The notes under the pieces: generated by a model | The model's database searches: none | Seen by the model: the letters and a program-made list of their open reading frames with translations, nothing else | Told to the model about the DNA's origin: nothing | Shown here: positions 3,463 through 42,319 of the stretch, piece by piece | Layout: each line of letters begins with the position of its first letter | How positions within the stretch are numbered: position 1 is the stretch's first letter | DNA from: a virus | Lineage: Duplodnaviria > Heunggongvirae > Uroviricota > Caudoviricetes | Virus record (IMG/VR): IMGVR_UViG_2571042390_000001 | Direction: 5' to 3' (one strand) | Length of the DNA: 64,000 bases | Position numbers and translations under genes: made by a program

Positions 3463-3908
3463 TGGGTAACTTTGGAAATTATTTCATTTTTATCATGGCA
3501 TTTGTTGCCATCATTGACCGTTTCATTTTTCGTCGCAAGAGTGTTGAGATTTTGAGTATTGGTGACGCTGTAGTGAAAGAATCCGCTATAGCATTTCCTG
3601 TTTCGCTACGTGTTAAGCGAAGCTGGGTCAGCAATGCTCAAATCGAATATTGGTTGCAAGACCTGAAAAATCCATCTGTGGTTATTTCAGGGAAAACGCG
3701 ACCAGTTGACGCCTCAAAACGCGGTGAGAGAGAAGAGTATTTGCTCATCGATACGAAATATCTTGAGCCAACGAAGTGGGATCTGAAAGTCACATTGACT
3801 AACGGTAACTGCCGACTGAATCCGCTTTATCGCATTTTCCCTATCAATGACTGCATAGAGCGCCAGTTTACGATCGAAAAGCGTAAAGGAGACTGGGATG
3901 TCAAATAA
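3462..3908 (+). CDS. Membrane-anchored protein (LydB/antiholin-like by position)
   Basis: 148 aa, N-terminal transmembrane segment; start overlaps upstream stop. Confidence 0.3.
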   Translation: MGNFGNYFIFIMAFVAIIDRFIFRRKSVEILSIGDAVVKESAIAFPVSLRVKRSWVSNAQIEYWLQDLKNPSVVISGKTRPVDASKRGEREEYLLIDTKYLEPTKWDLKVTLTNGNCRLNPLYRIFPINDCIERQFTIEKRKGDWDVK

Positions 3909-4518
3909 GAATAATTATGTTCTTCTTAATTATGATGAGTTAAACGAAAAGGGGCTGGCAAAACTCGTCAAAGAAATCAGCAAAGGTGGTTACAAGATAG
4001 CGAGGGTGATCCCTGCAAGTAATGGCAGGAAGAAAGATGGGATCATGACGCGCACGTTTACCCTTATTGGTATTGATGAACAGACAATGGAAGTTCAGGT
4101 TAACGATACCGGTGATATATCTGGGATCAAACTGAATGGTAAAACAGTACCGTTCAAGCCAGTAAAAACAATGTCGGCTTTGGGGCAATCTCTTGCGGCT
4201 TTATTTAATCGCGGAGCAACTTCTTTCCAGAAGTCATTAGCTCGAAAACTTGCTCGTGCAGCAAAAAATATTGATGACGGAAATAAGAAGCGGCAGGGAG
4301 TTAAATCTAACGCTCAGAAATTAGCTGAAGCGAAAGAATCACGTGATGCACTCCGTGAAGATATCGCTAATGCTAACGACAAACTGTCTAAACTCCAGAG
4401 CAAGTCAGACAAAGTAATGCAAGATACGGGTAACGTTAAAGCTGCCTTGTCTCAGGAAGTAGCTAAGACACGTGCTCTTAAAGAAGAAATCGCGCGCCTG
4501 GAGGATGAGCATGATTAA
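3898..4518 (+). CDS. Hypothetical coiled-coil protein (Hdf-like position in a dar-type operon)
   Basis: 206 aa, charged C-terminal half with heptad-like repeats. Confidence 0.5.
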   Translation: MSNKNNYVLLNYDELNEKGLAKLVKEISKGGYKIARVIPASNGRKKDGIMTRTFTLIGIDEQTMEVQVNDTGDISGIKLNGKTVPFKPVKTMSALGQSLAALFNRGATSFQKSLARKLARAAKNIDDGNKKRQGVKSNAQKLAEAKESRDALREDIANANDKLSKLQSKSDKVMQDTGNVKAALSQEVAKTRALKEEIARLEDEHD

Positions 4519-6436
4519 CAATCCTTTACGAATTAATATTCAGTCTACTTTTGCTGATACGATCCCCGGCTATGTGCCAAGTCGCTGGTCTTCAGAAGAA
4601 TTAAGCGAAGATGACCTGATTTTTGAGGCGGCGACCTTAGAAGATATTGAGCTTGCCTATATGGGCAATGAAATTCTGGTTGTGTCTGACGAAGCTATGT
4701 TTGAGTCCATAACTACAACCAGAATTCGGTTAGCTCAAACAATGCGAGCTTTCGTCCGTGCGCTGAATCGTGGCCTGAATGGTACGAATATTATGGCAGG
4801 GACTGATGAAGCCGGGACCGATGAAAATGGACGTAATTGTATTGGTGGTGCGATTATCGGTCGTGTACGTCGGGTAGCTAATATCCCTGTTTTGACCGCG
4901 CAGATACCGCTTACTGACGGGCAGAGTACAAGCATAATTTTCCACTCTCCAACAGCTGACGGGGCAAAAATAAAGAGTAACGACGAGCTTGTTGCATTTC
5001 AGTTTTTACTTAATAAGCGTAACGTAACTCACGTTGTCGCCCCGATTGGTGGGAGAGATGTTTCTTTAAGCCAGGTATGCCAGGCGCTATCTAATTTGAT
5101 TGAGCGTAACAGCGAAAAATTTAAGAAAGCAAAAGAGCGCCAGGACAAAATGAAGGCAGATATTGAGAGTTATCTCAATGAAGCAGATAAACTGGCAGAA
5201 GAACGGTCAATAATGATTGATCAGGTGGACGTTGCGCAACGTGGGCTGACTGAAAAGCGTGCTGCTCTTACGGAGATGCAAAAAAAACTTGATGCCCAGA
5301 AAGCCATCAACGAGGAATTACAAGAAAAACGCGATAAATTGTTGTCTGCTAAAGGTGAAAAAACGAAGGAACGAGCGTTTAGTGACCAGCTGCGACATGT
5401 AAAACATAATCTTGCCATTGACGGAAAAACAGTGCTGGATAATGGCGCTGAAGTTAATTATATCACGTCCGGCAGTGACAATTTCGTTACGATAGTAGCA
5501 CCTGAAGGTAAATTCAGTATTGATGCCAGTGCTGTCAAAGGAGGCAGTTTGGCAGATGCTGCAACCAAATTACTTAAAGCCTACCGAGAGCATAACGCAG
5601 ATAAATATAAAGTTGATGTGTTACCAGGCCAGCAGGAAGACCCCGAACCACCACAGACAGACCCCGAGACGAACCCAGTATCACAACCAGAGAGCCAGGA
5701 TGTAGGTAAATACCACTATGCACTTCAATCTCGCCCGGCTGGTGTTGGTGCTGTGCCGGATGGAAATAAAGCCGTGCTTGATCGTCCTGACCAGGCTGAT
5801 CAGTATTACGAATATGCTCGTCACGGTATCATTACGTATGACCGTAAACTGACAGATGAAGAAGTCAGCCAGTACGAGTTGCTCTATCTTCCTGATGAAG
5901 ATGAGCTGAAAGATTTTGCAGGCCAATTGGTTGTGTCCAGCATGTCGAAACATATTGATGGCTATGTAGACCTGTTTGGCAGTGACCTGAAAACATTCAA
6001 GGCGCAAGTGAAAATTCTTTTCCGCAAAGCGTTTCCAAACGTGGCGTATCCACTTGGTGATGGGGAGAACCTTTTCATTATGGACGTGTATAACGCCCTT
6101 CAAAATCATTCAAGCGAAGTAAAAACAGAGCATGTGGTTGAGCCGGAATCACAACCACAACCAGCACCAGAACAGGAGCCGGAGCCAGAAGAAGCTGGTG
6201 AATCAGCAAGTGAAGCTGATCAGGAGGCAGATAAAGCACTGGAGTACCTGAAATCCGTGCCGGAGCAGTTTACATCCCGCGATCTGACGGTCATCAGTGC
6301 TGAACTTGATCATGTGCAGGAAGCAGCAAACGCTCTAATCAGCGCAGGTCGATACGACGAGAACGAAGCCACTGTTGGTGCAGCAGTTGACTACCTGATC
6401 AACATTCTGGCTGAAATTCAGCAGGGAGGTGCTTAA
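4511..6436 (+). CDS. Large virion-type protein, DarA-like by size and operon position
   Basis: About 642 aa; GGAGG RBS 7 nt upstream of ATG 4511; coiled-coil core and Pro/Glu-rich linkers (EDPEPPQTDPETNPVSQPESQ, EPESQPQPAPEQEPEPEE). Confidence 0.5.
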   Translation: MINNPLRINIQSTFADTIPGYVPSRWSSEELSEDDLIFEAATLEDIELAYMGNEILVVSDEAMFESITTTRIRLAQTMRAFVRALNRGLNGTNIMAGTDEAGTDENGRNCIGGAIIGRVRRVANIPVLTAQIPLTDGQSTSIIFHSPTADGAKIKSNDELVAFQFLLNKRNVTHVVAPIGGRDVSLSQVCQALSNLIERNSEKFKKAKERQDKMKADIESYLNEADKLAEERSIMIDQVDVAQRGLTEKRAALTEMQKKLDAQKAINEELQEKRDKLLSAKGEKTKERAFSDQLRHVKHNLAIDGKTVLDNGAEVNYITSGSDNFVTIVAPEGKFSIDASAVKGGSLADAATKLLKAYREHNADKYKVDVLPGQQEDPEPPQTDPETNPVSQPESQDVGKYHYALQSRPAGVGAVPDGNKAVLDRPDQADQYYEYARHGIITYDRKLTDEEVSQYELLYLPDEDELKDFAGQLVVSSMSKHIDGYVDLFGSDLKTFKAQVKILFRKAFPNVAYPLGDGENLFIMDVYNALQNHSSEVKTEHVVEPESQPQPAPEQEPEPEEAGESASEADQEADKALEYLKSVPEQFTSRDLTVISAELDHVQEAANALISAGRYDENEATVGAAVDYLINILAEIQQGGA

Positions 6437-31178: not shown

Positions 31179-31571
31179 ATGGAACAAATCAGCAGCGCAG
31201 AAATTGCGGATATCATGATCAGGGCTGACTGCTATCTGACAGTCACTGAAATTACCACTCTCGCCAAAGAAAAATACCCTCATCTCCATGTTTCACGAGT
31301 AAGTGTAACTAACATCATTCGTCATTTTGTTCGTTCAAGCAGGGCAATCTGTGAGCTTGATGATCGTGTTTACCCACGAAAATACTGGTTGCATGGCCTG
31401 AACGGATATCAGTTCAAGGTGCGTGGGCGAACCCCTGAATATGGCAGTTTACTGGTTAAAAACTGTAGCAGGAAATCAGTCGAACAGGCGCGAAAAGAGC
31501 AACGAGAGCTGGTGGACATGGCGAATAAGCTGTGGAATGCCGCCGTTAAAAAGCGTGGTGTTGCTTTATGA
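31179..31571 (+). CDS. Hypothetical protein in the position P1 uses for the late-promoter activator Lpa
   Basis: 130 aa; operator-like motif upstream; immediately precedes pacA; homology not verified. Confidence 0.4.
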   Translation: MEQISSAEIADIMIRADCYLTVTEITTLAKEKYPHLHVSRVSVTNIIRHFVRSSRAICELDDRVYPRKYWLHGLNGYQFKVRGRTPEYGSLLVKNCSRKSVEQARKEQRELVDMANKLWNAAVKKRGVAL

Positions 31572-32932
31572 GTCTGGTTAATTGGGAGGAGCACCGCGCC
31601 CGCTTTATAGCGTTGCGTGAAGAAAAAGGGATCACTGTAAAGGAATACTGTGAGGAGCATGGCCTTAGCTTCAATACAGCCAGAAAGCATCTCAATATGA
31701 AAAAAAATGAGGTGCGGTCGCAGGTAAAGACAACAAAAAAAAGCACCAAATCACCTGAAAAAAAACGGGCGGGAAGAGCAACAAAAAAGCTGGAAGAGGG
31801 TGCAGAAAAAACAAAATTTACAGAAATTGACAATTCGCAGGGCGCAGGTTCTTTCCGAAGTATGCCGAGAAAGAAAACTTCGGATCATGAAAATAATTCA
31901 AATAATAACAATGAGATAAAAGAATCTGTCAGGAGATCATTGCGCGAAAAAATGGCGAAAATGATCCCCGAAGAAGATAAAAACGCCCCAAAAATTGAGG
32001 GATCTTCTGCAATGATCCCTGACGGTGCTGTGCAGCGTGCCACATTGCCAACTACGAATGTGGCTCGCGATATGATGAAGAACGGCGCAGAAGAACACCT
32101 GCGGTTAGCAATTCAAATGGCGCAAGAGCGCGCACTTCAGTATCAAAGCATTGTTGATCAGGAGGCCGAACGTCTACAGGCGGAAATAGACGCCTTGGGC
32201 GATAAAGAGCCAGAAGGAATGCACCCTGGGCAGCGCCTTCTCGGTCTAATCAGTGACGCGGCCTACTACATGAATGATTTTATCAGTAGGTTGGCAGCTA
32301 TATATCAGTCCGAACAAAAGCTGCGACAGGGGGATGAAAAGCTTCGTCAGAGCGCTCGCCAGCAAGCATTCAAAGAGGCTGAGGCCAGAGAAAAACTCGA
32401 ATTAGCACGCCTACAGGCCGAACAGCGTGGCAAAGAGATTGAATATCGCATTGGCGCTGACGCACGCGCAGCCAGAGTTATCGCCGCCGCTATACGTATG
32501 CGTGAGCGCGAGGAACTGGATGATATCGGTGTTGCTGAATACATCGAGCGCCAGGGTGTCAGCGTCCCGGCTATCCTCGCGGCGCGCGCGGCGAAAGCTA
32601 TCACTCTTCTCGAACCACCTGTTTCTGACGTCAATGATGTTGATGATGAACAGCTGGACAAAGAGGCAAGGGAGTTTGCAACGCTTCAGGCTAACCATCC
32701 GCAATGGCTGGCAGAGCGCCGGGCGGATGTGGCAACCATTGTTGAAGAATTGGGGTGCGGAGATTACGACCGCAATGGCGAGCGTAAAGCTGGAGAATTC
32801 GAGGCCAACGACGAAGAGCTGGATATTGACCCTTCGGCAACGGCTGAAATTTACGGTGATTATGATGCATCTGATGCAGGGTATGACGCCGGAGATGATG
32901 ATATCGCGATAGAACCGCCGGAGGATGATTAA
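31568..32932 (+). CDS. pacA: Terminase small subunit, PacA-like
   Basis: 454 aa; N-terminus MSLVNWEEHRARFIALREEKGITVKEYCEEHGLSFNTARKHL resembles my recollection of P1 PacA; acidic C-terminus; overlaps the large subunit gene. Confidence 0.65.
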   Translation: MSLVNWEEHRARFIALREEKGITVKEYCEEHGLSFNTARKHLNMKKNEVRSQVKTTKKSTKSPEKKRAGRATKKLEEGAEKTKFTEIDNSQGAGSFRSMPRKKTSDHENNSNNNNEIKESVRRSLREKMAKMIPEEDKNAPKIEGSSAMIPDGAVQRATLPTTNVARDMMKNGAEEHLRLAIQMAQERALQYQSIVDQEAERLQAEIDALGDKEPEGMHPGQRLLGLISDAAYYMNDFISRLAAIYQSEQKLRQGDEKLRQSARQQAFKEAEAREKLELARLQAEQRGKEIEYRIGADARAARVIAAAIRMREREELDDIGVAEYIERQGVSVPAILAARAAKAITLLEPPVSDVNDVDDEQLDKEAREFATLQANHPQWLAERRADVATIVEELGCGDYDRNGERKAGEFEANDEELDIDPSATAEIYGDYDASDAGYDAGDDDIAIEPPEDD

Positions 32933-34440
32933 TGGCTGGCGGGCGCAAGATTAAATGCGTCACCAGCGATCCACGCTGGCGCGATATGGTAATCAAATAC
33001 CGCTACAACTTTACCCAGGCTGTAGTCGATATTTTTGGGATGTTCCCCTCCCACCAGCAGCAGCAGATCATTCAGTCAGTGCAGGAAACGGGGAGTAGGA
33101 CGACCGTCACGTCCGGACACGGAACGGGGAAGTCGTCCCTTACCGCGATGTTGCTGTTGATTTTTATGATCCTGTTCCCCGATGCCCGTGTCATCATTGT
33201 TGCTAACAAGATAGGCCAGGTAAAAACAGGCGTATTCAAATACGTTAAACAGTATTGGGCGAATGCAGTTAAGCGTCATGGGTGGTTGCAGACCTATTTT
33301 GTCCTCTCTGACACCATGTTTTATGAGCGCTCCCGTAAGGGGATTTGGGAAGTTCTCTGCAAAGGTTATCGACTCGGCAACGAAGAAGCGCTGGCGGGGG
33401 AACACGCGGCACATTTGCTTCTAATTCTGGATGAAGCATCTGGTATATCTGATAAGGCGATCGGCGTAATGACCGGTGCTCTTACTGAAGAAGATAACCG
33501 GATGTTGATGCTATCCCAGCCAACAAGGCCAAGTGGTTATTTCTACGATTCGCACCATTCTCGAGCAAAAACCCCAGACAACCCGAAAGGGATCTGGACA
33601 GCAATTGTTCTTAACTCGGAAGAATCACCGTTCGTCACACCACAATTCATCAAGGAGAAGCTTCTGGAATATGGTGGGCGCGATTCTATTGAGTACATGG
33701 TCAAGGTGCTTGGTCAGTTCCCACGAGAAATTAACGGCTATTTGCTTGGTCGTGATGAATGCGATCGCTCTGCTCGCCGCAAGGTGTTGTTGGAGAAAAA
33801 CTGGGGATGGGTGGCAACGGCTGACGTTGGTAATGGGCGAGATAAGTCGGTCCTCAACATCTGCAAGGTATCAGGTCACAGGGATAAGCGGCGCGTTGTT
33901 AACTTTAAGGTAATGGAGATGCCTGGCACTATGGACCCATTGGCCTTTGCTGACTTCATATATAACGAATGTACGCCGGAAAAATACCCGAATATAACAA
34001 TCGCGGTTGATGCTGATGGTTTTGGTTCTGATACGTGTGCGCAGTTGGTGCGTCGTGGTGCGAACCCGGTACGTATTCGGTGGGGAAAACCCATGTTTGC
34101 GAACAAAGACAGGGAGCGATTTGTTAATCAGCGTGCCTACGCAAATATTATGGCGCGAGATGCCATAAAGTCAGGGCGTATGCGGATAGACAGTGACCCT
34201 AAAACGGCAGAGCAAGCGTCAAAAATCCCCTTTTTACTGAATGAAGAAGGGAAAATGGCGATGATGCGCAAAGAGCACATGCGGCAAAAGCTAAACATCA
34301 AATCGCCTGACCGATGGGATACCTACTGCTTCACTATGCTGGTGGACTATGTGCCTGCTAATGAAGATATTGGTGCCGAAATGGCAACTTTCCGAGATCA
34401 GGTTCTGGCGGATATCGAAATGCCGGATCTGGATATATAA
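32932..34440 (+). CDS. pacB: Terminase large subunit, PacB-like
   Basis: 502 aa; Walker A TSGHGTGKSS, Walker B LLLILDEASG, C-terminal nuclease-type region with conserved acidic residues. Confidence 0.8.
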   Translation: MAGGRKIKCVTSDPRWRDMVIKYRYNFTQAVVDIFGMFPSHQQQQIIQSVQETGSRTTVTSGHGTGKSSLTAMLLLIFMILFPDARVIIVANKIGQVKTGVFKYVKQYWANAVKRHGWLQTYFVLSDTMFYERSRKGIWEVLCKGYRLGNEEALAGEHAAHLLLILDEASGISDKAIGVMTGALTEEDNRMLMLSQPTRPSGYFYDSHHSRAKTPDNPKGIWTAIVLNSEESPFVTPQFIKEKLLEYGGRDSIEYMVKVLGQFPREINGYLLGRDECDRSARRKVLLEKNWGWVATADVGNGRDKSVLNICKVSGHRDKRRVVNFKVMEMPGTMDPLAFADFIYNECTPEKYPNITIAVDADGFGSDTCAQLVRRGANPVRIRWGKPMFANKDRERFVNQRAYANIMARDAIKSGRMRIDSDPKTAEQASKIPFLLNEEGKMAMMRKEHMRQKLNIKSPDRWDTYCFTMLVDYVPANEDIGAEMATFRDQVLADIEMPDLDI

Positions 34441-34467: not shown

Positions 34468-35505
34468 TTACCAGAGCTTCGCGGCGTACTGCGTTTGGGG
34501 GAATGTGTATCCGTAACGTTCTTCGATTGCTTTGCCGTATTTTTTACGAGCTTCATTCAGTTTTATGCCGGTCAGGTCGTCTCCAGAGGCCATCATTACG
34601 TCTAACAATTCCAGATCCATTTTATCCAGCCTTGCCATTGCTTCACGTGATGTACGTATCTTACGCTCAATGATATGGCGAATAGCCGGATCGGCATCCT
34701 CCAGCATCTTAGCGGATTTCTGCTTAAGGCTTTCATTGCGAATATCGATGTTCCTTAAGATGTACGACTTCGCAACGTAGCTTGGCTGGTGTTTTTCCAG
34801 GTCACGAACACGATATAAGTTAAAATCGCCGAGAAGGCTGCAAGGTACCGATTCGACGCCAGAATAAATTGTAATGCTCCGGCGCTCACCAACATTATTG
34901 ACAACGGGGATCGTTGTCTTCGGTAGTCTTGCGAAAACCAATGCGCCATGTGCGCCAACTCTAAAGCGAGAAAGGGCATTGCTGCCTTCGATGTTTGTTG
35001 TCAGCACAACATCTGTATATGCCTCTTTACGCGCCCGGTAGATCTCGCCTTCAGGCTCAGCTTCAAAGAAGCGCTGTTCTTCTTCAAGAGCACCTACGAT
35101 TTGAGAAAAAACCCTATTTTTCAGGCTTTTCTTTATGATTTTGTCGTATTTTTTGAGCAATTGTTCACGTGTAAATGTACGTGTTGTTGTAGCGCTTTGC
35201 ACAACAACATGCGTGCTTTGATTGGTGTCCTCAATGATGAATGGGATCGGAGAATATACAGACTCAACAATGTTCGACGCTTTGCCGTCGGCATCGCGGC
35301 ACATGTCAACGAAGGCTTTCCATTCAGCAAGACATTTTTCAGCTTCTTCTAATATGTTTTGGTCATGCGTTAATGCAACATGGCGGAATTCCTCGCCAGC
35401 ATAACTGGTATCATGGAAAACAGAGTTTGCGACCACCAGCTCTTTCCACCGTTCAGCGGTTTGCAGGAACCGTTTGTACTCTTTCTCGATCGACTTCTTA
35501 CTCAT
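34468..35505 (-). CDS. Putative immunity repressor (C1-like by position and operator overlap); function unverified
   Basis: 345 aa; lies between pacB and the lox-type site as c1 does in P1; an operator-like motif sits 17 bp upstream of its start. Confidence 0.35.
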   Translation of the reverse strand: MSKKSIEKEYKRFLQTAERWKELVVANSVFHDTSYAGEEFRHVALTHDQNILEEAEKCLAEWKAFVDMCRDADGKASNIVESVYSPIPFIIEDTNQSTHVVVQSATTTRTFTREQLLKKYDKIIKKSLKNRVFSQIVGALEEEQRFFEAEPEGEIYRARKEAYTDVVLTTNIEGSNALSRFRVGAHGALVFARLPKTTIPVVNNVGERRSITIYSGVESVPCSLLGDFNLYRVRDLEKHQPSYVAKSYILRNIDIRNESLKQKSAKMLEDADPAIRHIIERKIRTSREAMARLDKMDLELLDVMMASGDDLTGIKLNEARKKYGKAIEERYGYTFPQTQYAAKLW

Positions 35506-35715: not shown

Positions 35716-35747
35716 TAACTTTAAATAATTGGCATTATTTAAAGTTA
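35716..35747. other. rox recombination site (Dre target): 14-bp inverted repeats around a 4-bp spacer
   Basis: TAACTTTAAATAAT-TGGC-ATTATTTAAAGTTA; reverse complement matches the rox sequence as I recall it (TAACTTTAAATAATGCCAATTATTTAAAGTTA); 150 bp upstream of the recombinase gene. Confidence 0.85.
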
Positions 35748-35899
35748 GGCTATAATTATGGGTAGATGATCAGTATTGACATCACTGAAAATACGCGCCT
35801 CGAATCAAAGGCTTGAATCTTGAAAATTAACTTATAGCTACCCTGTCATTTTTATATTTTTCGCGTAGCGTTATCTGTATATAGAGGTTAAATAGTTTC

Positions 35900-36928
35900 A
35901 TGAGTGAATTAATTATCTCTGGCAGCTCCGGTGGTTTTCTGCGCAACATTGGCAAAGAGTACCAGGAGGCCGCAGAAAACTTTATGCGGTTCATGAATGA
36001 CCAGGGGGCTTATGCGCCGAATACTCTGCGCGACCTCCGGTTGGTGTTTCATTCATGGGCGCGCTGGTGTCACGCTCGCCAGCTTGCCTGGTTTCCGATC
36101 TCACCAGAAATGGCCCGCGAGTATTTTCTTCAGCTGCATGATGCCGATCTGGCTTCGACCACCATTGATAAGCACTACGCCATGCTGAATATGCTGCTTT
36201 CGCATTGTGGCCTTCCGCCACTTTCGGATGATAAAAGTGTTTCTCTGGCTATGCGGCGCATCCGGCGCGAAGCGGCAACTGAAAAAGGCGAACGAACAGG
36301 CCAGGCTATACCGCTTCGGTGGGACGATCTGAAACTGCTCGACGTCCTGTTGTCCAGGTCAGAACGGCTGGTGGACCTGCGCAACCGGGCTTTTCTCTTT
36401 GTTGCATACAATACGCTGATGCGTATGTCGGAAATCTCGCGTATTCGTGTAGGAGATCTGGACCAAACAGGTGACACTGTCACGCTACATATTTCACACA
36501 CGAAGACAATAACGACCGCCGCCGGGCTTGATAAGGTGCTTTCCCGTCGCACTACCGCTGTGCTGAATGACTGGCTGGATGTTTCCGGGCTTCGCGAACA
36601 TCCTGACGCAGTGCTGCTCCCGCCGATACACCGTAGCAATAAGGCCAGGATCACGACAACGCCCCTTACTGCACCTGCAATGGAGAAAATATTCAGCGAC
36701 GCCTGGGTGTTGCTGAATAAAAGAGATGCTACGCCAAACAAAGGAAGATACCGGACGTGGACCGGGCATAGTGCACGCGTCGGGGCCGCTATTGATATGG
36801 CTGAAAAGCAGGTGTCTATGGTGGAGATCATGCAGGAAGGAACCTGGAAGAAACCGGAAACACTTATGCGGTATCTTCGCCGTGGCGGCGTGTCTGTGGG
36901 GGCTAATAGCCGCCTGATGGATTTGTAA
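35900..36928 (+). CDS. dre: Cre-family tyrosine recombinase (Dre-like)
   Basis: 342 aa; Cre catalytic residues conserved (ISRIRVGDL, HTKTITTAAG, GHSARVGAA, GTWKKPETLMRYL); N-terminus MSELIISGSSGGFLRNIGKEYQ matches my recollection of Dre. Confidence 0.9.
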   Translation: MSELIISGSSGGFLRNIGKEYQEAAENFMRFMNDQGAYAPNTLRDLRLVFHSWARWCHARQLAWFPISPEMAREYFLQLHDADLASTTIDKHYAMLNMLLSHCGLPPLSDDKSVSLAMRRIRREAATEKGERTGQAIPLRWDDLKLLDVLLSRSERLVDLRNRAFLFVAYNTLMRMSEISRIRVGDLDQTGDTVTLHISHTKTITTAAGLDKVLSRRTTAVLNDWLDVSGLREHPDAVLLPPIHRSNKARITTTPLTAPAMEKIFSDAWVLLNKRDATPNKGRYRTWTGHSARVGAAIDMAEKQVSMVEIMQEGTWKKPETLMRYLRRGGVSVGANSRLMDL

Positions 36929-36930
36929 AT

Positions 36931-36948
36931 TAAATTTCTAACACATCT
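36931..36948. promoter_or_regulatory. Operator-like motif
   Basis: taaatttctaacacatct, just after the dre stop. Confidence 0.45.
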
Positions 36949-37001
36949 TTTTAGATTAACGCCTTTGCTGTAAAGTACCCTCGCCTATTTAGGAGGGTGC
37001 T

Positions 37002-37346
37002 TTGCAGAGCCAAATCACGGAATCAAGACGCTTCAAGGTGGATGGTTACACCGTAACCTTCGCCGCTGGTGTTAAGAACAGTCATGCTGTTGTTGTGTTC
37101 GGCATCATGACCGGGCTTGAGGCCGTCCCTGTGTTTACCCTCGAAAAAAACTGGCGAAATCTGGAGGAAGCAGAAAGCTACGTCCGGAAAGTAACCATCA
37201 TTGCCGCCGAAAAACTCCTGGCCCACTATCAGGAAAATTATCGCACTATGGTCGAGAAGATTAATCTCGCTTTCACTCGCCCCACTACCGGCTTTATTGC
37301 ACCGAATACTAATGCAGGTCGATATCCGGCAAGGGGGCGTCGGTGA
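37002..37346 (+). CDS. Hypothetical protein
   Basis: 114 aa; TTG start 5 nt after strong RBS aggaggg. Confidence 0.5.
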   Translation: MQSQITESRRFKVDGYTVTFAAGVKNSHAVVVFGIMTGLEAVPVFTLEKNWRNLEEAESYVRKVTIIAAEKLLAHYQENYRTMVEKINLAFTRPTTGFIAPNTNAGRYPARGRR

Positions 37347-37819
37347 AAACTTATTACCCATCTCTGAATTGTTACCCGTCTTCCTATCCAGAATTATCCG
37401 GGAAGCTGTTAGCTCTATTAGCTAAAGCACCTACGGAATGGTTTAAGCCAGTCGTTATCAATCCACACTTCCTGGATTACGGATCTGTTCGCACTCGTAA
37501 CGAACTCAAAAACCTACTGGCGCATGGATTCATTCGACACCGTTCCGGTAAAGGCTATCAGTTAGCGATTGCGCCAGAAGAGGCCGTGCGGCTATTCGCA
37601 TATCGTGACAGCCAGACAAAAGCTCGGGTAATAGCTCAAATACTTCATAACGGCAGCACCTATGCCCGCCAGTTTGGCGGCGACACGTCGCAGTTCTTGC
37701 GGGCGGTGCGATCGCTGGAGGAGCAAGGAATTATTGAAAGTTCCTGTCTTCCTGTTCCTACCGTTCCACATATCAAACGTCGGGTTTACACCTTCACGCA
37801 GAGAGCTAAAAAACAATGA
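37343..37819 (+). CDS. Hypothetical protein
   Basis: 158 aa; overlapping start/stop with neighbours. Confidence 0.5.
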   Translation: MKTYYPSLNCYPSSYPELSGKLLALLAKAPTEWFKPVVINPHFLDYGSVRTRNELKNLLAHGFIRHRSGKGYQLAIAPEEAVRLFAYRDSQTKARVIAQILHNGSTYARQFGGDTSQFLRAVRSLEEQGIIESSCLPVPTVPHIKRRVYTFTQRAKKQ

Positions 37820-38310
37820 TTTACGTAAAAGTGAAACGCCTACATCCGGCAGCAAAACTTCCAGCTTATGCCACCTCCGGATCGGCGGCGATGGATTTTG
37901 AGGCTGTTGAAATAAAACCATGCGTCGATAGCAATGGTGCAATTTCCTCAAGCTGGTGGGTGTATACCGGACTGGCTATGGAGATCCCGCCCGGCTGGTG
38001 TCTGAAACTCTATCCGCGATCCGGATTGGGCTGCAAAAAACATACTCGCCTGGCTAACTGCGTAGGAATTATCGACTCCGATTATCGCGGCGAAATCATG
38101 GCAAAACTGATTACTGATCCCGGCGGGGAAGGCGTTTGTCTCAAGCCTGGAATGGCGGTCATGCAAGGCATTTTTGAGCGTGTTGAACCGGTATCGCTGG
38201 TAGAAGTTGATGAACTCGATGAAACAGAGCGAGGTGCTGGTGGCTTTGGTAGCACATCGGAAGACCGCATTGAAATCAAGCGTACACCGCTTCAGTACGA
38301 AAAGTTTTAA
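37816..38310 (+). CDS. dut: dUTPase
   Basis: dUTPase motifs YPRSGLG, GIIDSDYRGEI and RGAGGFGSTS. Confidence 0.85.
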   Translation: MIYVKVKRLHPAAKLPAYATSGSAAMDFEAVEIKPCVDSNGAISSSWWVYTGLAMEIPPGWCLKLYPRSGLGCKKHTRLANCVGIIDSDYRGEIMAKLITDPGGEGVCLKPGMAVMQGIFERVEPVSLVEVDELDETERGAGGFGSTSEDRIEIKRTPLQYEKF

Positions 38311-38324
38311 GTAGAGGAAAGATT

Positions 38325-38987
38325 ATGGCCAGCACTTTTCAGGTGTTCCCCAAATACAAAAGCCACAGCATCATTCGGGCATCGAAAATCAAAGATATTG
38401 TTATTGTCGGCGAAGCTTATGCGCCCATTTTTGGCAGTATCGAAGTCGTTGAGCCAAAAGGAATGACGCTTCGTGTTGATGGTGTGTTCTTGGAAAAATT
38501 CCGACCGCAAATAGGAGGATATCTCGTCACTGCTGAAAATGGCTATCTGGTCTATGTGCCAGAGAAAGCATTTGAAAAATGCTATAGCCGGGTTAACGAC
38601 GCCTCCGAAAATGGGGTATCGCTCAGCATTGAAGGTCACAATGGGGTGACATTCATTACAGCCAGGGACGTAACTATTTCTGCTGGCGGTATCGCTACTC
38701 TACAAGAAGAAATCGACCTTGAAGCAGCCGACTTTTCTGACGCGCTGATGTGGCTGAAGGATGGCAAGAAAGTTGCCCGACGTGGGTGGAACGGCGAAAA
38801 CCAATTCTGCTGGCTGGTTCCCGAAGGACAGTACCCGGCACGAATGGAAGCCATTAAGGGATATTTCCCCGGCGATCTCGTTCCGTATGGTGCTTATTTC
38901 GCCTTAAAAAATGCACAAGGTGTAGTTGTTCCGTGGGTTCCTTCTGTAGGCGACTTACTGGCATGTGACTGGTTTGTGGTGGAGTGA
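38325..38987 (+). CDS. Two-domain protein with C-terminal DUF2829-like domain
   Basis: 220 aa; C-terminal FSDALMWLKDGKKVARRGWNG ... VPWVPSVGDLLACDWFVVE. Confidence 0.6.
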   Translation: MASTFQVFPKYKSHSIIRASKIKDIVIVGEAYAPIFGSIEVVEPKGMTLRVDGVFLEKFRPQIGGYLVTAENGYLVYVPEKAFEKCYSRVNDASENGVSLSIEGHNGVTFITARDVTISAGGIATLQEEIDLEAADFSDALMWLKDGKKVARRGWNGENQFCWLVPEGQYPARMEAIKGYFPGDLVPYGAYFALKNAQGVVVPWVPSVGDLLACDWFVVE

Positions 38988-38993
38988 TTTAAC

Positions 38994-39761
38994 GTGGAAA
39001 ATACTAAAGCAATTCAATACCGCTTGCGTAATGGCCTGCTGGTGGCTGTTAACGCCGACATGTCACTGCCGTTTGACACGATTGAACGCACTATCATGAC
39101 GTATCTCGGCTTTAATGAAGAACTGAATGAAGAGCATGGCGTAGCTATATGGAACGATGCAGATAACGGCGCTCGTCGTCATATTACAGCCAGAGGAAAA
39201 GACTACTCTCTGGAAGAACTGTTTACCCTTGCACAGTCTTTCGAATGTGTAGCATTGGACCTGTTTAATGATCATGCTATAGCGCAACGACTTATCCGCG
39301 AGCTTGGGCTGTCCGTTACCCCAATCATCTTTAGAAATGGCAGCCTGACTGGCACATGGCGCGTAGAACGCATCTCAAACTACCTTCCATATAACCGACT
39401 GTTAAATGGAGTAATCTCCGGCGTTAATCAGCCCGTAGCGTGTGAAAATGTAAACCTGGTTGTCGCTGTTTTGGCAACCGCATGTCGTGTTATCGGTTTG
39501 GCTAAACAGGCATTTATTCATTTCCCAAATGGTGCAGAAGGTAGCGCAGAGATTATCGCGTGTGATTTCGAATTTACCTGGATGCTACGAGAATATCTGG
39601 ACCAAACAGTGTTCCGCGCCGAAGAACTGGATATGTATATCACGTCAACGATTCCTGATGATGTGCGTGCTGAAGCAATCGCTACAGCAAGGGCCAAATG
39701 CCGTGCGGCGATTGCAGAGCAGGCCAAAGAAGAAGTTAAGGAAGTGGCAGATGGCGACTAA
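38994..39761 (+). CDS. Hypothetical protein
   Basis: 255 aa from GTG; stop overlaps the next start. Confidence 0.45.
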   Translation: MENTKAIQYRLRNGLLVAVNADMSLPFDTIERTIMTYLGFNEELNEEHGVAIWNDADNGARRHITARGKDYSLEELFTLAQSFECVALDLFNDHAIAQRLIRELGLSVTPIIFRNGSLTGTWRVERISNYLPYNRLLNGVISGVNQPVACENVNLVVAVLATACRVIGLAKQAFIHFPNGAEGSAEIIACDFEFTWMLREYLDQTVFRAEELDMYITSTIPDDVRAEAIATARAKCRAAIAEQAKEEVKEVADGD

Positions 39762-40845
39762 GAGCAATATTTATAAAGATCCGCGCTGGCTGTCGCTGGT
39801 GGAGAAATATAAAGACAATTGGGTTCTGGCAGCAAAAGAATTGTTTGATATTGATTTAAGCCACCAGCAACAACAAATTGTTGAAGCTATACAGCCCAAT
39901 AATGCAAAAGCTACTGTCACCACTCCGCATGGGATCGGACGACCGCAAGTGCTTGCTGTTATTAGTACCCTTTATACGATTATGTATCCTGATTCCCGGA
40001 CAGTAATTGTTTATCCAAAATCAAATGCTTGCAAAAAAGGAATTGTTGCATATGTGTGGCAATGTTGGGAGGCATTACTGAAAAAACAACCTTTTATCAT
40101 TGAGTATTTTAAGGTCGGTGATAGCGGTCTGATGTTCAATGAATTTTGGGGAATGTGCTTTTGTAACTACCGCCTTAACTATGAAGATAGCATTGCAGGT
40201 CACTACGCCGACCATCTGTTATTCATTATTGTGGATTCCGCACATATCAGCGATCGGGCATACAGTATTGTGTGGGCAAGCATGACTAGTGGTGATTCAC
40301 GCATATTGCTCACTTCAATTCCGTCACCAGAGGAAATAGGATTTTTTTATGATTCTCATCATGGGCGTGCTTTAGCTGAAGATAATCCGAGTGGTGCCTA
40401 TAAAGCCATTAAGCTGAGTGCTGAGGATTCACCATTTATTACCCAAGAATATCTTGATCATTTTGCCGAAAGGTATGGCGGGCGAAATAGTGATGACTAC
40501 CGTCGTATGATTCTTGGTGAGTTCCCTGGTATTAGGGAGGCTGTTCTTGAATCAGATATGCCGAAGACAATGCGCTTTTCGATGCCTGATGGTAGTGAAT
40601 GGACAATACCATTACGAGTGATAGCCCGGCATCATGCGCAGCACCACGCCAAAAAACATGGCGTCACGACATTAGAATGGTTGAAATCGCACACCATTCC
40701 ACTCTTCACTGCAGATCACAATGCTATCGTTGAGTGGGCAAAAACAATTCCGTGGGAGAATGTCGCTGAATACGCCCACATGCTAAAACCGCCGAAAGAC
40801 AGGCAAGAAATTAGCTGGCTGACAGCAGAAAAAATCATTGAGTGA
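39751..40845 (+). CDS. Terminase large-subunit paralogue with degenerate ATPase motifs and no nuclease region
   Basis: About 364 aa; aligns with PacB-like N-terminus (DPRW, HQQQQI) but Walker A reads PHGIGRPQ and Walker B IIVDSA; C-terminus unrelated to PacB nuclease region. Confidence 0.6.
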   Translation: MATKSNIYKDPRWLSLVEKYKDNWVLAAKELFDIDLSHQQQQIVEAIQPNNAKATVTTPHGIGRPQVLAVISTLYTIMYPDSRTVIVYPKSNACKKGIVAYVWQCWEALLKKQPFIIEYFKVGDSGLMFNEFWGMCFCNYRLNYEDSIAGHYADHLLFIIVDSAHISDRAYSIVWASMTSGDSRILLTSIPSPEEIGFFYDSHHGRALAEDNPSGAYKAIKLSAEDSPFITQEYLDHFAERYGGRNSDDYRRMILGEFPGIREAVLESDMPKTMRFSMPDGSEWTIPLRVIARHHAQHHAKKHGVTTLEWLKSHTIPLFTADHNAIVEWAKTIPWENVAEYAHMLKPPKDRQEISWLTAEKIIE

Positions 40846-40848
40846 TAG

Positions 40849-40880
40849 TAAGAAGCCCGCCTGGTTGAGCGGGCTTCTTT
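40849..40880. terminator. Bidirectional intrinsic terminator
   Basis: aagaagcccgc-ctggttga-gcgggcttctt followed by TT. Confidence 0.7.
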
Positions 40881-41261
40881 TCAAATATTGGAACCATATA
40901 GTTCACGTAGTTTTTTCGCTACTGAAGATACGGGGATTTCACCAGTTGCAGCCCCCACTGCAAGCTCCACCAGCACGGGATCATCATATACCTGTATACC
41001 GTTACGGCGTAGAAATAGCAGCGCACTGTTTAGCGCGGTACGCTTATTGGCATCATTGAATATATGCCCTCTCGCCGTAGCCACCAGGTAGGTGGCGGAG
41101 ACTTCGAAAAGGTCGGTGATCTCTTCGTAGGCAACTCTGGCCTGAACTCTCCCGATAATGGCCTCTGCCCTACCCGGATCTGACATTCCCGGCAGGCCGC
41201 CGTAGCGGCTTATATTCGCATCATGAAGCGCAATAAGTTCTTCCGGTGATATATGCCTCAT
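40881..41261 (-). CDS. doc: Doc toxin (Fic/Doc family)
   Basis: 126 aa; Fic-type motif region [11 protein letters not shown]; overlaps phd stop. Confidence 0.9.
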
Positions 41262-41482
41262 TATCGGTTAACCAGTTCCTTGTTGGTGGAGTCCAGGGTG
41301 TCAAACAGGGATGCAAATTCAGCATCCAGCGCCGCCTTTTTGTAGGCTTCGAAAGTAGCCTTGCTGACAATTACTGCTGGTTCACGGCCTCTGCGGGTGA
41401 TTTCAACCTCTTCCCCGGCTTCAACATTGTTGAGCAATTCAGAAAGGTTGCCGCGCGCGGTACGGAAGTTAATAGATTGCAT
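41261..41482 (-). CDS. phd: Phd antitoxin
   Basis: 73 aa from second Met ([16 protein letters not shown]...STNKELVNR), near-identical to P1 Phd as I recall it. Confidence 0.9.
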
Positions 41483-41554
41483 AAACACCTCGTGTACTCG
41501 TTATGTGTACACAATCATAAACCTCACAGGCATAAAGCACCAGCACTTTGCAGC

Positions 41555-41944
41555 TTAAATAACCGGACAATCATCAAACTCCCCACTTCGGGCATCATTG
41601 ATGACATGAGTGATCACACCAAAAACAGCATTACTGCCCGTGCATCCATCGTCATCTACTGGTAACGCCTCTTTCTTCCCGGTGCTTAAATCCTCCAGGT
41701 GCTGGCGCGGATACTTTCGGTATCTCTTTATGCGATATTCTCCCTCCATAGCGCACACAAGCAGCGAACCATCAACCGGAGTAAGCGAGGAATCAACCAC
41801 CAGCAAAGCACCCTGCAATATTCCCTCACGGTGATGGCTATCAGCTGCCCGCATGAAGTAGGTCGCTGAAGGATGTCTAATTATCTGCTGATCAAGAGAA
41901 ATTCGGCTTTCAACATAATCCGCCGCAGGAGAAGGGAAGCCCAT
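41555..41944 (-). CDS. humD: UmuD-like S24 peptidase (HumD)
   Basis: 129 aa; LexA/UmuD fold signature, Ser in LVVDSS and Lys in EYRIKRY. Confidence 0.8.
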   Translation of the reverse strand: MGFPSPAADYVESRISLDQQIIRHPSATYFMRAADSHHREGILQGALLVVDSSLTPVDGSLLVCAMEGEYRIKRYRKYPRQHLEDLSTGKKEALPVDDDGCTGSNAVFGVITHVINDARSGEFDDCPVI

Positions 41945-42067: not shown

Positions 42068-42319
42068 TTATTTTTTTGGTGCATCCTCGTTCTGATACAC
42101 CGGATCGCTCCCTTTTGGCAACTGGAGGTTTAACTGCCGGTAGTGCCGTAGCCGTTCCATGAAATAGGCGCGCAGGTTTTCCGGTTGCTCACGGGCCACC
42201 TGCTCTGCAATCACAGGTATATTCAGCCGTTCTTTGTAAGCAACGCCGCTGGCGGCAAGGTCTACGTTCACCTTGTCTCGCTCTTCCTGGCTTTTAGCTG
42301 CTATATTTCGATCTGACAC
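42068..42319 (-). CDS. hot: Homologue of DNA polymerase III theta subunit (Hot)
   Basis: 83 aa; [36 protein letters not shown] closely matches E. coli theta (HolE) as I recall it. Confidence 0.75.

What the first reader, a model, noticed from the sequence alone, without database searches (positions are those of the whole stretch)
39751..40845. Terminase large-subunit paralogue with inactivated ATPase motifs
The 364-aa product aligns with the N-terminal ATPase domain of the PacB-like terminase at 32932-34440 (shared DPRW, HQQQQI and the fold around the P-loop). Its Walker A reads PHGIGRPQ (Lys and Ser/Thr lost) and its Walker B reads IIVDSA (catalytic Glu lost). The C-terminus is unrelated to the PacB nuclease region. 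It sits in a cluster with dUTPase and a DUF2829 fusion, 5 kb from the real terminase genes. A catalytically dead terminase could act as a packaging regulator, a decoy against terminase-sensing defences, or interfere with competing phages.
Basis: seen in the sequence. Interest (0 to 1): 0.6.

Follow-up and report, generated by a model that had tools for sequence, protein, structure and literature searches.

The report
Catalytically dead terminase paralogue, swappable alleles
A P1-like phage-plasmid carries, next to its isaA gene, a well-conserved copy of the ATPase half of its DNA-packaging enzyme. This copy has lost every catalytic residue and the nuclease half, and its ATPase-like domain is exchanged between otherwise near-identical plasmids, so it most likely acts by binding as a mimic, but its function is untested.

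Summary
ORF 39751-40845 (364 aa) is a true paralogue of the window's PacB: 38% identity over 258 aa, E 3e-58, and the AlphaFold model matches terminase ATPase domains. Residues that are 90-100% conserved in 49 real PacB-type terminases are all replaced (Walker A Lys/Ser, Walker B Asp, Q93, H152, S164, T192, R193). The catalytic Glu is Asp here and Asp, Glu or Asn in the other alleles. The nuclease domain is replaced by a small domain that mostly occurs as a stand-alone ~100-aa protein.

New points:
- It is not a one-off. About 160 of ~790 matching plasmids and roughly 2-3.5% of complete E. coli genomes carry it, in at least five alleles that are 44-76% identical, all with degenerate motifs. 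dN/dS is 0.12-0.29.
- It always directly follows a homologue of P1 isaA, at two different genome sites. Canonical P1 has IS1+isaB in its place.
- Two plasmids with identical PacB tails differ only across the pseudo-ATPase domain (53% aa identity, against 96-98% in the flanks).
- In the P1-type lineage it lies in the C1-operator-controlled ssb operon.

Best reading: a non-catalytic terminase mimic used in conflict with a host terminase sensor or a rival P1-like element, rather than a regulator of its own packaging. The mechanism is untested. I found no literature on it.

The parts
39751..40845 (+). Pseudo-terminase gene (364 aa plus stop), family phrog_5902
   Evidence: ORF. 38% identity to PacB, E 3e-58. 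phrog_5902 at E 1e-165, function unknown. AF2 and Foldseek match TerL ATPase domains.
39751..40536 (+). TerL-ATPase-like domain (aa 1-262), non-catalytic. This is the segment that is swapped between plasmids.
   Evidence: pLDDT mostly above 90. Catalytic columns lost. 53% aa identity and dS 1.44 against L004, while the flanks are 96-98% identical.
39922..39948 (+). Degenerate Walker A (TPHGIGRPQ, aa 58-66)
   Evidence: PacB family consensus is S-G-H-G-x-G-K-S with K 98% and S 92% conserved. The paralogues have R/Q/H/E and P/K/T.
40225..40242 (+). Degenerate Walker B (IIVDSA, aa 159-164)
   Evidence: PacB family D161 is 94% and E162 100% conserved. The paralogues have V/T/A/M/I at 161 and D/E/N at 162.
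40537..40842 (+). C-terminal ~100-aa domain of unknown function, replacing the TerL nuclease domain
   Evidence: No similarity to the PacB C-terminus. 225 representatives at E<=1e-3, mostly stand-alone ~100-aa proteins. It is also the C-terminus of phrog_17928/DUF1351 proteins. Absent from the L013 allele.
38994..39761 (+). isaA homologue (255 aa, phrog_2326). It lies directly upstream of every paralogue-bearing locus inspected (window, L001, L002, L004, L005, L013), overlapping the paralogue's start in most.
   Evidence: 48% identical to the MH422554 partner, which is 97% identical to P1 IsaA aa 57-320. phrog_2326. Contexts.
39738..39744 (+). Shine-Dalgarno (AAGGAAG) for the paralogue, inside the end of isaA
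   Evidence: Read directly from the sequence.
40859..40884 (+). Terminator-like hairpin plus T-run between the paralogue and the convergent doc gene
   Evidence: An analogous stronger hairpin follows the paralogue in MH422554.
32932..34440 (+). PacB, the functional large terminase (502 aa) and the paralogue's relative
   Evidence: The profile hits the Sf6 gp2 nuclease domain and the P74-26 ATPase domain.
31568..32932 (+). PacA (small terminase, 454 aa)
   Evidence: No similarity to the isaA homologue.
35729..38987 (+). Upstream genes on the same strand, tightly packed: promoter-like site (35729-35756), cre-like recombinase, orf114, orf158, dUTPase, Tad2-like fusion
   Evidence: The same order occurs in L002, L004 and L013.

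Best explanation
The gene encodes a pseudo-terminase. It is an old duplicate of the PacB ATPase domain that has lost ATP binding and hydrolysis and the nuclease domain, but is kept by selection as a folded protein. It is an accessory gene of P1-like phage-plasmids and always sits directly after an isaA homologue. In the P1 lineage it is co-transcribed with ssb and isaA from a C1-repressed promoter, so it would be made early after infection or induction. I infer that it works by mimicry. It would occupy a partner that normally recognises the ATPase domain of a large terminase, without doing any packaging chemistry. The ATPase-like domain is exchanged as a cassette between plasmids that carry the same PacB tail, so the partner is more likely external than the element's own motor. 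The candidates are a host sensor of terminases (Avs-type) or the PacA/PacB of a competing P1-like element. What is shown: homology, fold, loss of catalytic residues, purifying selection, isaA linkage, the allele swap and the operon context. What is inferred: the binding-only mode of action, the external target and the timing in this particular window.
For: Homology and fold.
Loss of catalytic columns: nearly every catalytic column that is >=90% conserved in 49 real PacB-type terminases is lost, while structural G/W/F/P residues are kept.
Purifying selection: dN/dS is 0.29 at unsaturated dS 0.47 (window vs L013), and 0.27 and 0.12-0.14 against more distant alleles. Intact ORFs occur in 162 plasmids and 113-190 of 5,426 E. 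coli genomes.
Single origin: the paralogues are monophyletic, sister to the whole P1-like PacB clade, and equally distant (33-39%) from all PacBs.
isaA linkage at two different loci.
Domain-precise allele swap with a 100% identical PacB tail.
Accessory and non-essential context: canonical P1 has IS1+isaB in its place, and isaA is non-essential in P1 by CRISPRi (PMC10695390).
Early operon in the P1 lineage: a C1 operator lies 20 nt upstream of ssb, no + strand promoter or terminator was found inside, and a strong terminator follows the paralogue.
Neighbourhood: a Tad2-like (anti-Thoeris family) gene in this window, and a methyltransferase in the Enterobacter version of the operon.
Most conserved region: the segment most conserved both with PacB and among alleles is aa 197-262 (47-48%), the end of the ATPase domain. 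This is consistent with a retained interaction surface.
Against: PADLOC gave no hit, and no anti-defence library was available. For Avs receptors, binding of the target normally activates them (my knowledge of Gao et al. 2022, which I could not retrieve), so a simple decoy would be harmful unless it blocks oligomerisation. A dominant-negative terminase would also have to spare its own PacB, and nothing here shows such discrimination. The allele swap could be neutral recombination between old alleles. The regulation of this window's operon is unknown, because the P1 C1 operator consensus is absent from the whole window. The C-terminal domain also occurs next to recombinase, exonuclease and SSB genes in Xanthomonas phages, which points towards DNA metabolism rather than packaging.
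Confidence: 0.42

Rival explanations
1. It regulates or assists the element's own packaging. It would bind PacA or join the PacB ring to tune pac cleavage, headful processivity or timing.
For: It retains the N-terminal helices and the last part of the ATPase domain shared with PacB. It lies on the same replicon, 5.3 kb from pacAB.
Against: About 80% of the matching plasmids (most of them P1-like), and canonical P1, P7, D6 and SJ46, lack it. Two plasmids with an identical PacB tail carry alleles only 53% identical. There is no closer similarity to the resident PacB than to foreign PacBs. In the P1 lineage it lies in the early ssb operon, not the late pac operon.
Confidence: 0.18
2. Its function has nothing to do with terminase partners. 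The dead ATPase fold is a scaffold that works with IsaA and the C-terminal domain in early DNA metabolism (replication, recombination, SSB-linked).
Against: The L013 allele lacks the C-terminal domain entirely. IsaA occurs widely without the paralogue. The IsaA model has low confidence (pLDDT 62.8). None of this explains the cassette-like diversification of the ATPase-like domain.
Confidence: 0.2
3. It is a decaying duplicate with no function (a pseudogene in the making).
For: All catalytic motifs and the nuclease domain are lost. Some clusters are truncated, for example P0003, which lacks the N-terminus.
Against: dN/dS is 0.12-0.29 across alleles 44-76% identical, all with intact ORFs of 364-366 aa. 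The fold is predicted with high confidence. The start is coupled to isaA and a good SD is conserved. The isaA-paralogue pair has been kept together at two genome sites.
Confidence: 0.05
4. It is still an NTPase that uses non-canonical residues, for example the shifted Lys-Thr in the GIGQKT alleles and the single acidic residue at position 162.
For: Some alleles read GIGQKT or GIGHKS, with a Lys one position later, and keep Glu162.
Against: The window allele has GIGRPQ, with no Lys or Ser/Thr and a Pro in the loop. The L001 allele has neither acidic residue (I-N) and L013 has V-N. Q93, H152, S164, T192 and R193, which are 90-100% conserved in real terminases, are all replaced.
Confidence: 0.05

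Closest known systems
PacB, the large terminase subunit of P1-like phages (TerL family)
   Same: The N-terminal ~260 aa are homologous (33-39% identity to every PacB tested) and have the same ASCE ATPase fold. They share the N-terminal helices, the HQQQQ motif and the last part of the ATPase domain.
   Different: There is no Walker A Lys/Ser, no Walker B Asp, a variable residue at the catalytic Glu position, and no nuclease domain. It is not adjacent to pacA. It is accessory rather than essential.
phrog_5902 plus phrog_2326 (IsaA of phage P1)
   Same: The gene is a full-length member of phrog_5902 and its upstream neighbour is a full-length member of phrog_2326, which is the P1 IsaA family.
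   Different: Both families are labelled 'unknown function'. Canonical P1 keeps only isaA, with the slot after it taken by IS1 and isaB.
Packaging-interference proteins of phage satellites (SaPI Ppi, PICI Rpp), which bind the helper's small terminase. Cited from my own knowledge.
   Same: The proposed logic is the same: a non-enzymatic protein that titrates a component of the terminase.
   Different: No homology is known and none was tested. Those proteins are not terminase-derived, and they are carried by satellites, not by a phage-plasmid with its own terminase.
Targets and activators of terminase-sensing Avs receptors (Avs1-3; KpAvs2 and Ksap2)
   Same: Avs receptors recognise the TerL fold. 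KpAvs2 is predicted to contact the TerL ATPase domain, and its activator Ksap2 has weak structural similarity to a TerL ATPase domain (PMC11564622). The paralogue model aligns to the terminase chain of the Avs3 complex 8dgc.
   Different: Nothing shows that this protein binds, activates or inhibits any Avs. No terminase-derived Avs inhibitor is described in the papers searched.

Membership tests
Large terminase subunit (TerL/PacB), as a functional enzyme | N-terminal ASCE P-loop ATPase fold homologous to TerL | tested here: met
   BLASTP E 3e-58 to PacB. The top Foldseek hits in PDB and BFVD are all TerL.
Large terminase subunit (TerL/PacB), as a functional enzyme | Walker A with the GK[ST] lysine and hydroxyl residue | tested here: not met
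   K is 98% and S 92% conserved in 49 PacB-type terminases. The paralogues have R/Q/H/E and P/K/T.
Large terminase subunit (TerL/PacB), as a functional enzyme | Walker B hhhhD followed by the catalytic Glu | tested here: not met
   D161 (94%) is replaced by V/T/A/M/I. E162 (100%) is replaced by D in this window, E in some alleles and N in others.
Large terminase subunit (TerL/PacB), as a functional enzyme | C-terminal RNase H-like nuclease domain | tested here: not met
   The alignment to PacB stops at aa 259. The PacB-family profile hits the Sf6 gp2 nuclease domain only through columns the paralogue lacks. The C-terminal domain belongs to another family.
Large terminase subunit (TerL/PacB), as a functional enzyme | Encoded next to the small terminase gene and essential for packaging | tested here: not met
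   It follows isaA, not pacA. It is absent from P1, P7, D6 and SJ46 and from about 80% of the matching plasmids, most of which are P1-like.
phrog_5902 | Full-length match to the family profile | tested here: met
   E 1.2e-165, protein aa 4-363 against profile positions 2-358 of 359.
Known anti-phage defence systems (PADLOC-DB 2.0) | Match to any defence-protein model, for the paralogue, the IsaA homologue or the Tad2-like neighbour | tested here: not met
   0 families at E<=0.1 for all three.
Anti-defence decoy or inhibitor of terminase-sensing Avs | Binds an Avs sensor domain and lowers Avs-mediated defence | not testable with these tools
   This needs co-expression or EOP assays, or complex prediction. 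The only evidence is circumstantial context: a Tad2-like neighbour, an early operon in the P1 lineage, and allele diversity.
Packaging-interference proteins (Ppi/Rpp-like logic) | Binds a small or large terminase of another element and blocks its packaging | not testable with these tools
   No interaction data. No sequence comparison to Ppi or Rpp was run.

The most novel reading that the evidence does not exclude
An early-expressed, terminase-derived pseudoenzyme with a cassette-like, exchangeable specificity domain. Phage-plasmids would use it as a molecular mimic of the large terminase, either to blind host receptors that sense terminases (Avs1-3) before the real PacB is made, or to poison the packaging motor or small terminase of rival P1-like elements in the same cell. 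To my knowledge this would be the first anti-defence or inter-element weapon built from a dead copy of the very protein that is sensed or targeted.
Probability: 0.3. Interest if true: 0.8.

Novelty: new variant of a known kind. Interest (0 to 1): 0.55.

Why it matters
Large terminases are among the most conserved phage proteins and are direct targets of bacterial pattern-recognition immunity. A selected, catalytically dead, domain-swapping copy of the terminase ATPase in a common family of E. coli and Salmonella phage-plasmids is a ready-made probe for two questions: what recognises the terminase ATPase domain in vivo, and how mobile elements exploit mimicry of their own core proteins. P1-like phage-plasmids spread resistance genes and are used for transduction, so a factor that alters packaging or host range has practical interest. 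The work also gives a context for the unexplained P1 gene isaA. It further shows that the laboratory P1 reference has IS1 and isaB at the position where many wild relatives carry this gene.

Tried and rejected
- Megablast of the gene against the phage collection found nothing. The gene is found only through protein search or in plasmids.
- The idea that the upstream partner is a PacA (small terminase) paralogue was rejected: no similarity.
- The idea that P1 IsaB is a remnant of the paralogue was rejected: no similarity, and the P1/MH422554 homology breaks exactly at the isaA stop and the hxr stop.
- Pfam and NCBIfam give no significant family for the paralogue, only a sub-threshold DUF5076 hit (0.042) and PBSX terminase hit (0.038).
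- The C-terminal domain profile against PDB sequences gave no credible hit.
- The P1 C1 operator consensus is absent from the window, so regulation here could not be read off.
- Literature searches for a terminase decoy or a dead terminase paralogue found nothing specific. Gao et al. 2022 and Lobocka et al. 2004 are not held.
- The 461-aa ORF from TTG 39460, and the 438-aa database entry P0001, are gene-calling extensions that overlap isaA in another frame. I treated them as artefacts.

Full report
**1. The observation**

The window holds a P1/D6-like phage-plasmid. Its genes run pacA (31568-32932), pacB (32932-34440), a C1-type repressor, a cre-like recombinase, two small ORFs, dUTPase, a Tad2-like/DUF2829 fusion, a 255-aa ORF and then the gene in question (39751-40845, +). 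Convergent doc/phd and a humD-like gene follow.

The 364-aa product aligns with PacB over aa 7-259 (38% identity, E 3e-58) and not beyond. I built an AlphaFold2 model on an alignment of paralogues and 49 PacB-type terminases. It has pLDDT 82.5, mostly above 90 in the N-domain. Its best matches among solved structures and viral models are all large-terminase ATPase domains. So the homology is real and far above chance.

**2. Catalytic residues**

In the 49 real PacB-type terminases these columns are 88-100% conserved: S58, G59, K64, S65 (Walker A), N89, Q93, H152, D161, E162, S164, G176, T192 and R193. Apart from E162, discussed below, every one is replaced in the paralogues. Structural G, W, F and P residues are kept.

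The window allele reads TTPHGIGRPQ and IIVDSA. The gapless alignment shows that Val replaces the Walker B Asp and Asp replaces the catalytic Glu. Other alleles read GIGQKT/T-E, GIGHKS/M-D, GIGETS/I-N and GIGRAP/V-N. The positions vary freely, as expected if nucleotide chemistry is no longer selected.

**3. The C-terminus**

Residues 263-364 have no similarity to the PacB nuclease region, which a profile links to the Sf6 gp2 nuclease domain. They belong instead to a family with 225 representatives at E<=1e-3. Most are stand-alone ~100-aa proteins, including gene_35 of the P1-like Cronobacter phage JK004. The same domain is also the C-terminus of ~470-510-aa DUF1351 proteins that lie next to recombinase, exonuclease and SSB genes in Xanthomonas phages.

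The nearly invariant positions of this domain are hydrophobic or aromatic, so it looks like a binding module rather than an enzyme. It has no PDB sequence relative. One natural allele (L013, 266 aa) lacks it completely.

**4. Distribution and evolution**

The gene is absent from canonical P1, P7, D6 and SJ46, where only pacB matches. A full-length copy is present in 162 of 789 matching plasmids. In complete E. coli genomes, 190 of 5,426 match and 113 have a near full-length copy, almost always on ~90-kb plasmids.

At least five alleles exist, with N-domains 44-76% identical to one another. They form one clade that is sister to the whole P1-like PacB clade and 33-39% identical to any PacB. This points to a single old duplication, not repeated recent ones, and to no co-evolution with the resident PacB. 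dN/dS is 0.29 at an unsaturated dS of 0.47, and 0.12-0.27 for deeper pairs. The gene is therefore maintained by selection.

**5. The partner is isaA**

In every paralogue-bearing locus inspected (window, L001, L002, L004, L005, L013), a phrog_2326 gene directly precedes the paralogue. In the window the overlap is 11 nt, with an AAGGAAG Shine-Dalgarno. In the P1 variant MH422554 that partner is 97% identical to P1 IsaA aa 57-320. The window's partner is 48% identical to it.

The pair occupies two different sites. In the D6-like lineage it lies at the end of the operon downstream of cre. In the P1 lineage it lies between ssb and hxr. In canonical P1, homology to MH422554 ends exactly at the isaA stop codon and resumes at the hxr stop. 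The slot holds 95 bp, IS1 and the unrelated isaB. Venturini et al. list this region as variable hot spot RD-2 and describe '2 orfs including putative phosphohydrolase' there in pJIE250-3 (PMC6906374). That may be the same pair, but I did not check.

isaA homologues also occur without the paralogue in Klebsiella and Enterobacter P1-like plasmids. isaA is non-essential in P1 (PMC10695390). Its predicted structure is of low confidence and gave no usable fold assignment.

**6. A domain-precise allele swap**

The window and plasmid L004 are ~97% identical at the DNA level through isaA, and again from paralogue codon ~249 to beyond the terminator. Their PacB C-terminal 204 aa are 100% identical. Across the pseudo-ATPase domain, however, DNA identity drops to about 60%, with 53% aa identity and dS 1.44. 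Old, divergent versions of just this domain are therefore shuffled between otherwise near-identical elements.

This pattern fits a specificity determinant aimed at a variable outside target. It is hard to reconcile with a partner as constant as the element's own PacB. Neutral recombination cannot be excluded.

**7. Expression context**

In MH422554 a C1 operator lies 20 nt upstream of ssb, with one mismatch to the consensus and at the position annotated as Ossb in P1. No + strand promoter-like or terminator-like site lies between ssb and the end of the paralogue. A 10-bp-stem terminator follows it immediately. There the gene is therefore probably part of a C1-repressed early transcription unit.

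In the window, the genes from the cre-like recombinase to the paralogue are tightly packed. A strong promoter-like site lies upstream of cre and a terminator-like hairpin follows the paralogue. The repressor type differs, though, and the P1 operator consensus is absent from the whole window. Timing here is therefore unknown.

**8. Interpretation**

The firm conclusion is that this is a selected, non-catalytic, terminase-derived protein and not a packaging enzyme. For mechanism I favour mimicry directed at an external partner (0.42). The gene is accessory and sits in variable hot spots. Here it lies next to a Tad2-like gene (an anti-Thoeris family). In one lineage it is early-expressed, and its TerL-like domain is diversified and swapped.

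Two concrete versions remain open. One is inhibition or pre-emption of Avs-type receptors that sense the terminase fold. KpAvs2 is predicted to contact the TerL ATPase domain, and its activator Ksap2 weakly resembles one (PMC11564622). The other is titration or poisoning of the PacA/PacB of competing P1-like elements, by analogy with satellite proteins that bind small terminases (my own knowledge).

Each version has a weakness. Binding normally activates Avs, and a poison subunit must spare its own motor. The rivals are self-regulation of packaging (0.18), an IsaA/SSB-linked role in DNA metabolism (0.20), residual non-canonical NTPase activity (0.05) and decay (0.05).

**9. Novelty**

Databases hold the family only as 'hypothetical protein', as phrog_5902 'unknown function', or with an automatic 'terminase large subunit' label. 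I found no paper that describes it, or that describes any terminase-derived pseudoenzyme used as a decoy or inhibitor. It is best filed as a new variant of a known kind: the TerL family, non-catalytic branch with a different C-terminal domain. It would become considerably more interesting if the mimicry role is confirmed.

Noticed in passing
window 38325-38987 (+): A Tad2-like/DUF2829 domain (aa 136-219, E 1.6e-22) is fused to an extra N-terminal domain (phrog_11049/phrog_872). Tad2 is an anti-Thoeris sponge family, so this may be an anti-defence gene in the same operon.
   Followed up: partly
window 34468-35505 (-) and the whole window: The C1-type repressor is 345 aa (Pfam Phage_P7_repressor_C1 in the identical gene of L004). 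The P1 C1 operator consensus ATTGCTCTAATAAATTT has no match with <=3 mismatches anywhere in the 64 kb. This implies an immunity specificity different from P1.
   Followed up: partly
window 38900-40900 compared with L004 5110-7160: There are sharp recombination breakpoints at the isaA 3' end and at paralogue codon ~249. Only the pseudo-ATPase domain is replaced by a ~60% identical DNA segment, while the flanks are ~97% identical. The isaA 3' end also carries a 36-bp indel.
   Followed up: yes
L003 (P1 NC_005856) 3570-4532: P1 isaA is annotated as 320 aa, but all homologues start at its Met57. The annotated N-terminal 56 codons are probably not translated.
   Followed up: partly
L008/L009 4495-5004 (Enterobacter P1-like plasmids): An HNH-endonuclease-like ORF (phrog_374, E 2e-13) overlaps the start of the isaA homologue. 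An N6/N4 methyltransferase replaces dUTPase in the same operon. The operon downstream of cre is a variable cargo site.
   Followed up: no
window 40881-41488 (-), 41555-41944 (-), 42068-42319 (-): A doc/phd toxin-antitoxin pair, an S24 peptidase (humD-like) and a DNA polymerase III theta homologue (hot-like) lie convergent to the paralogue, as annotated in the near-identical plasmid NZ_CP076307.
   Followed up: no
window 31179-31571 (+): A 130-aa ORF ends 4 nt inside pacA. In P1, lpa sits upstream of pacA with a late promoter between them, so the arrangement here differs.
   Followed up: no
plasmid hits H120 and H121 (NZ_CP086387, NZ_OY754384): Short PacB-like fragments match only aa ~119-266 of the query (39-41% identity) and are annotated as hypothetical proteins. 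They may be truncated terminase remnants or another paralogue type.
   Followed up: no
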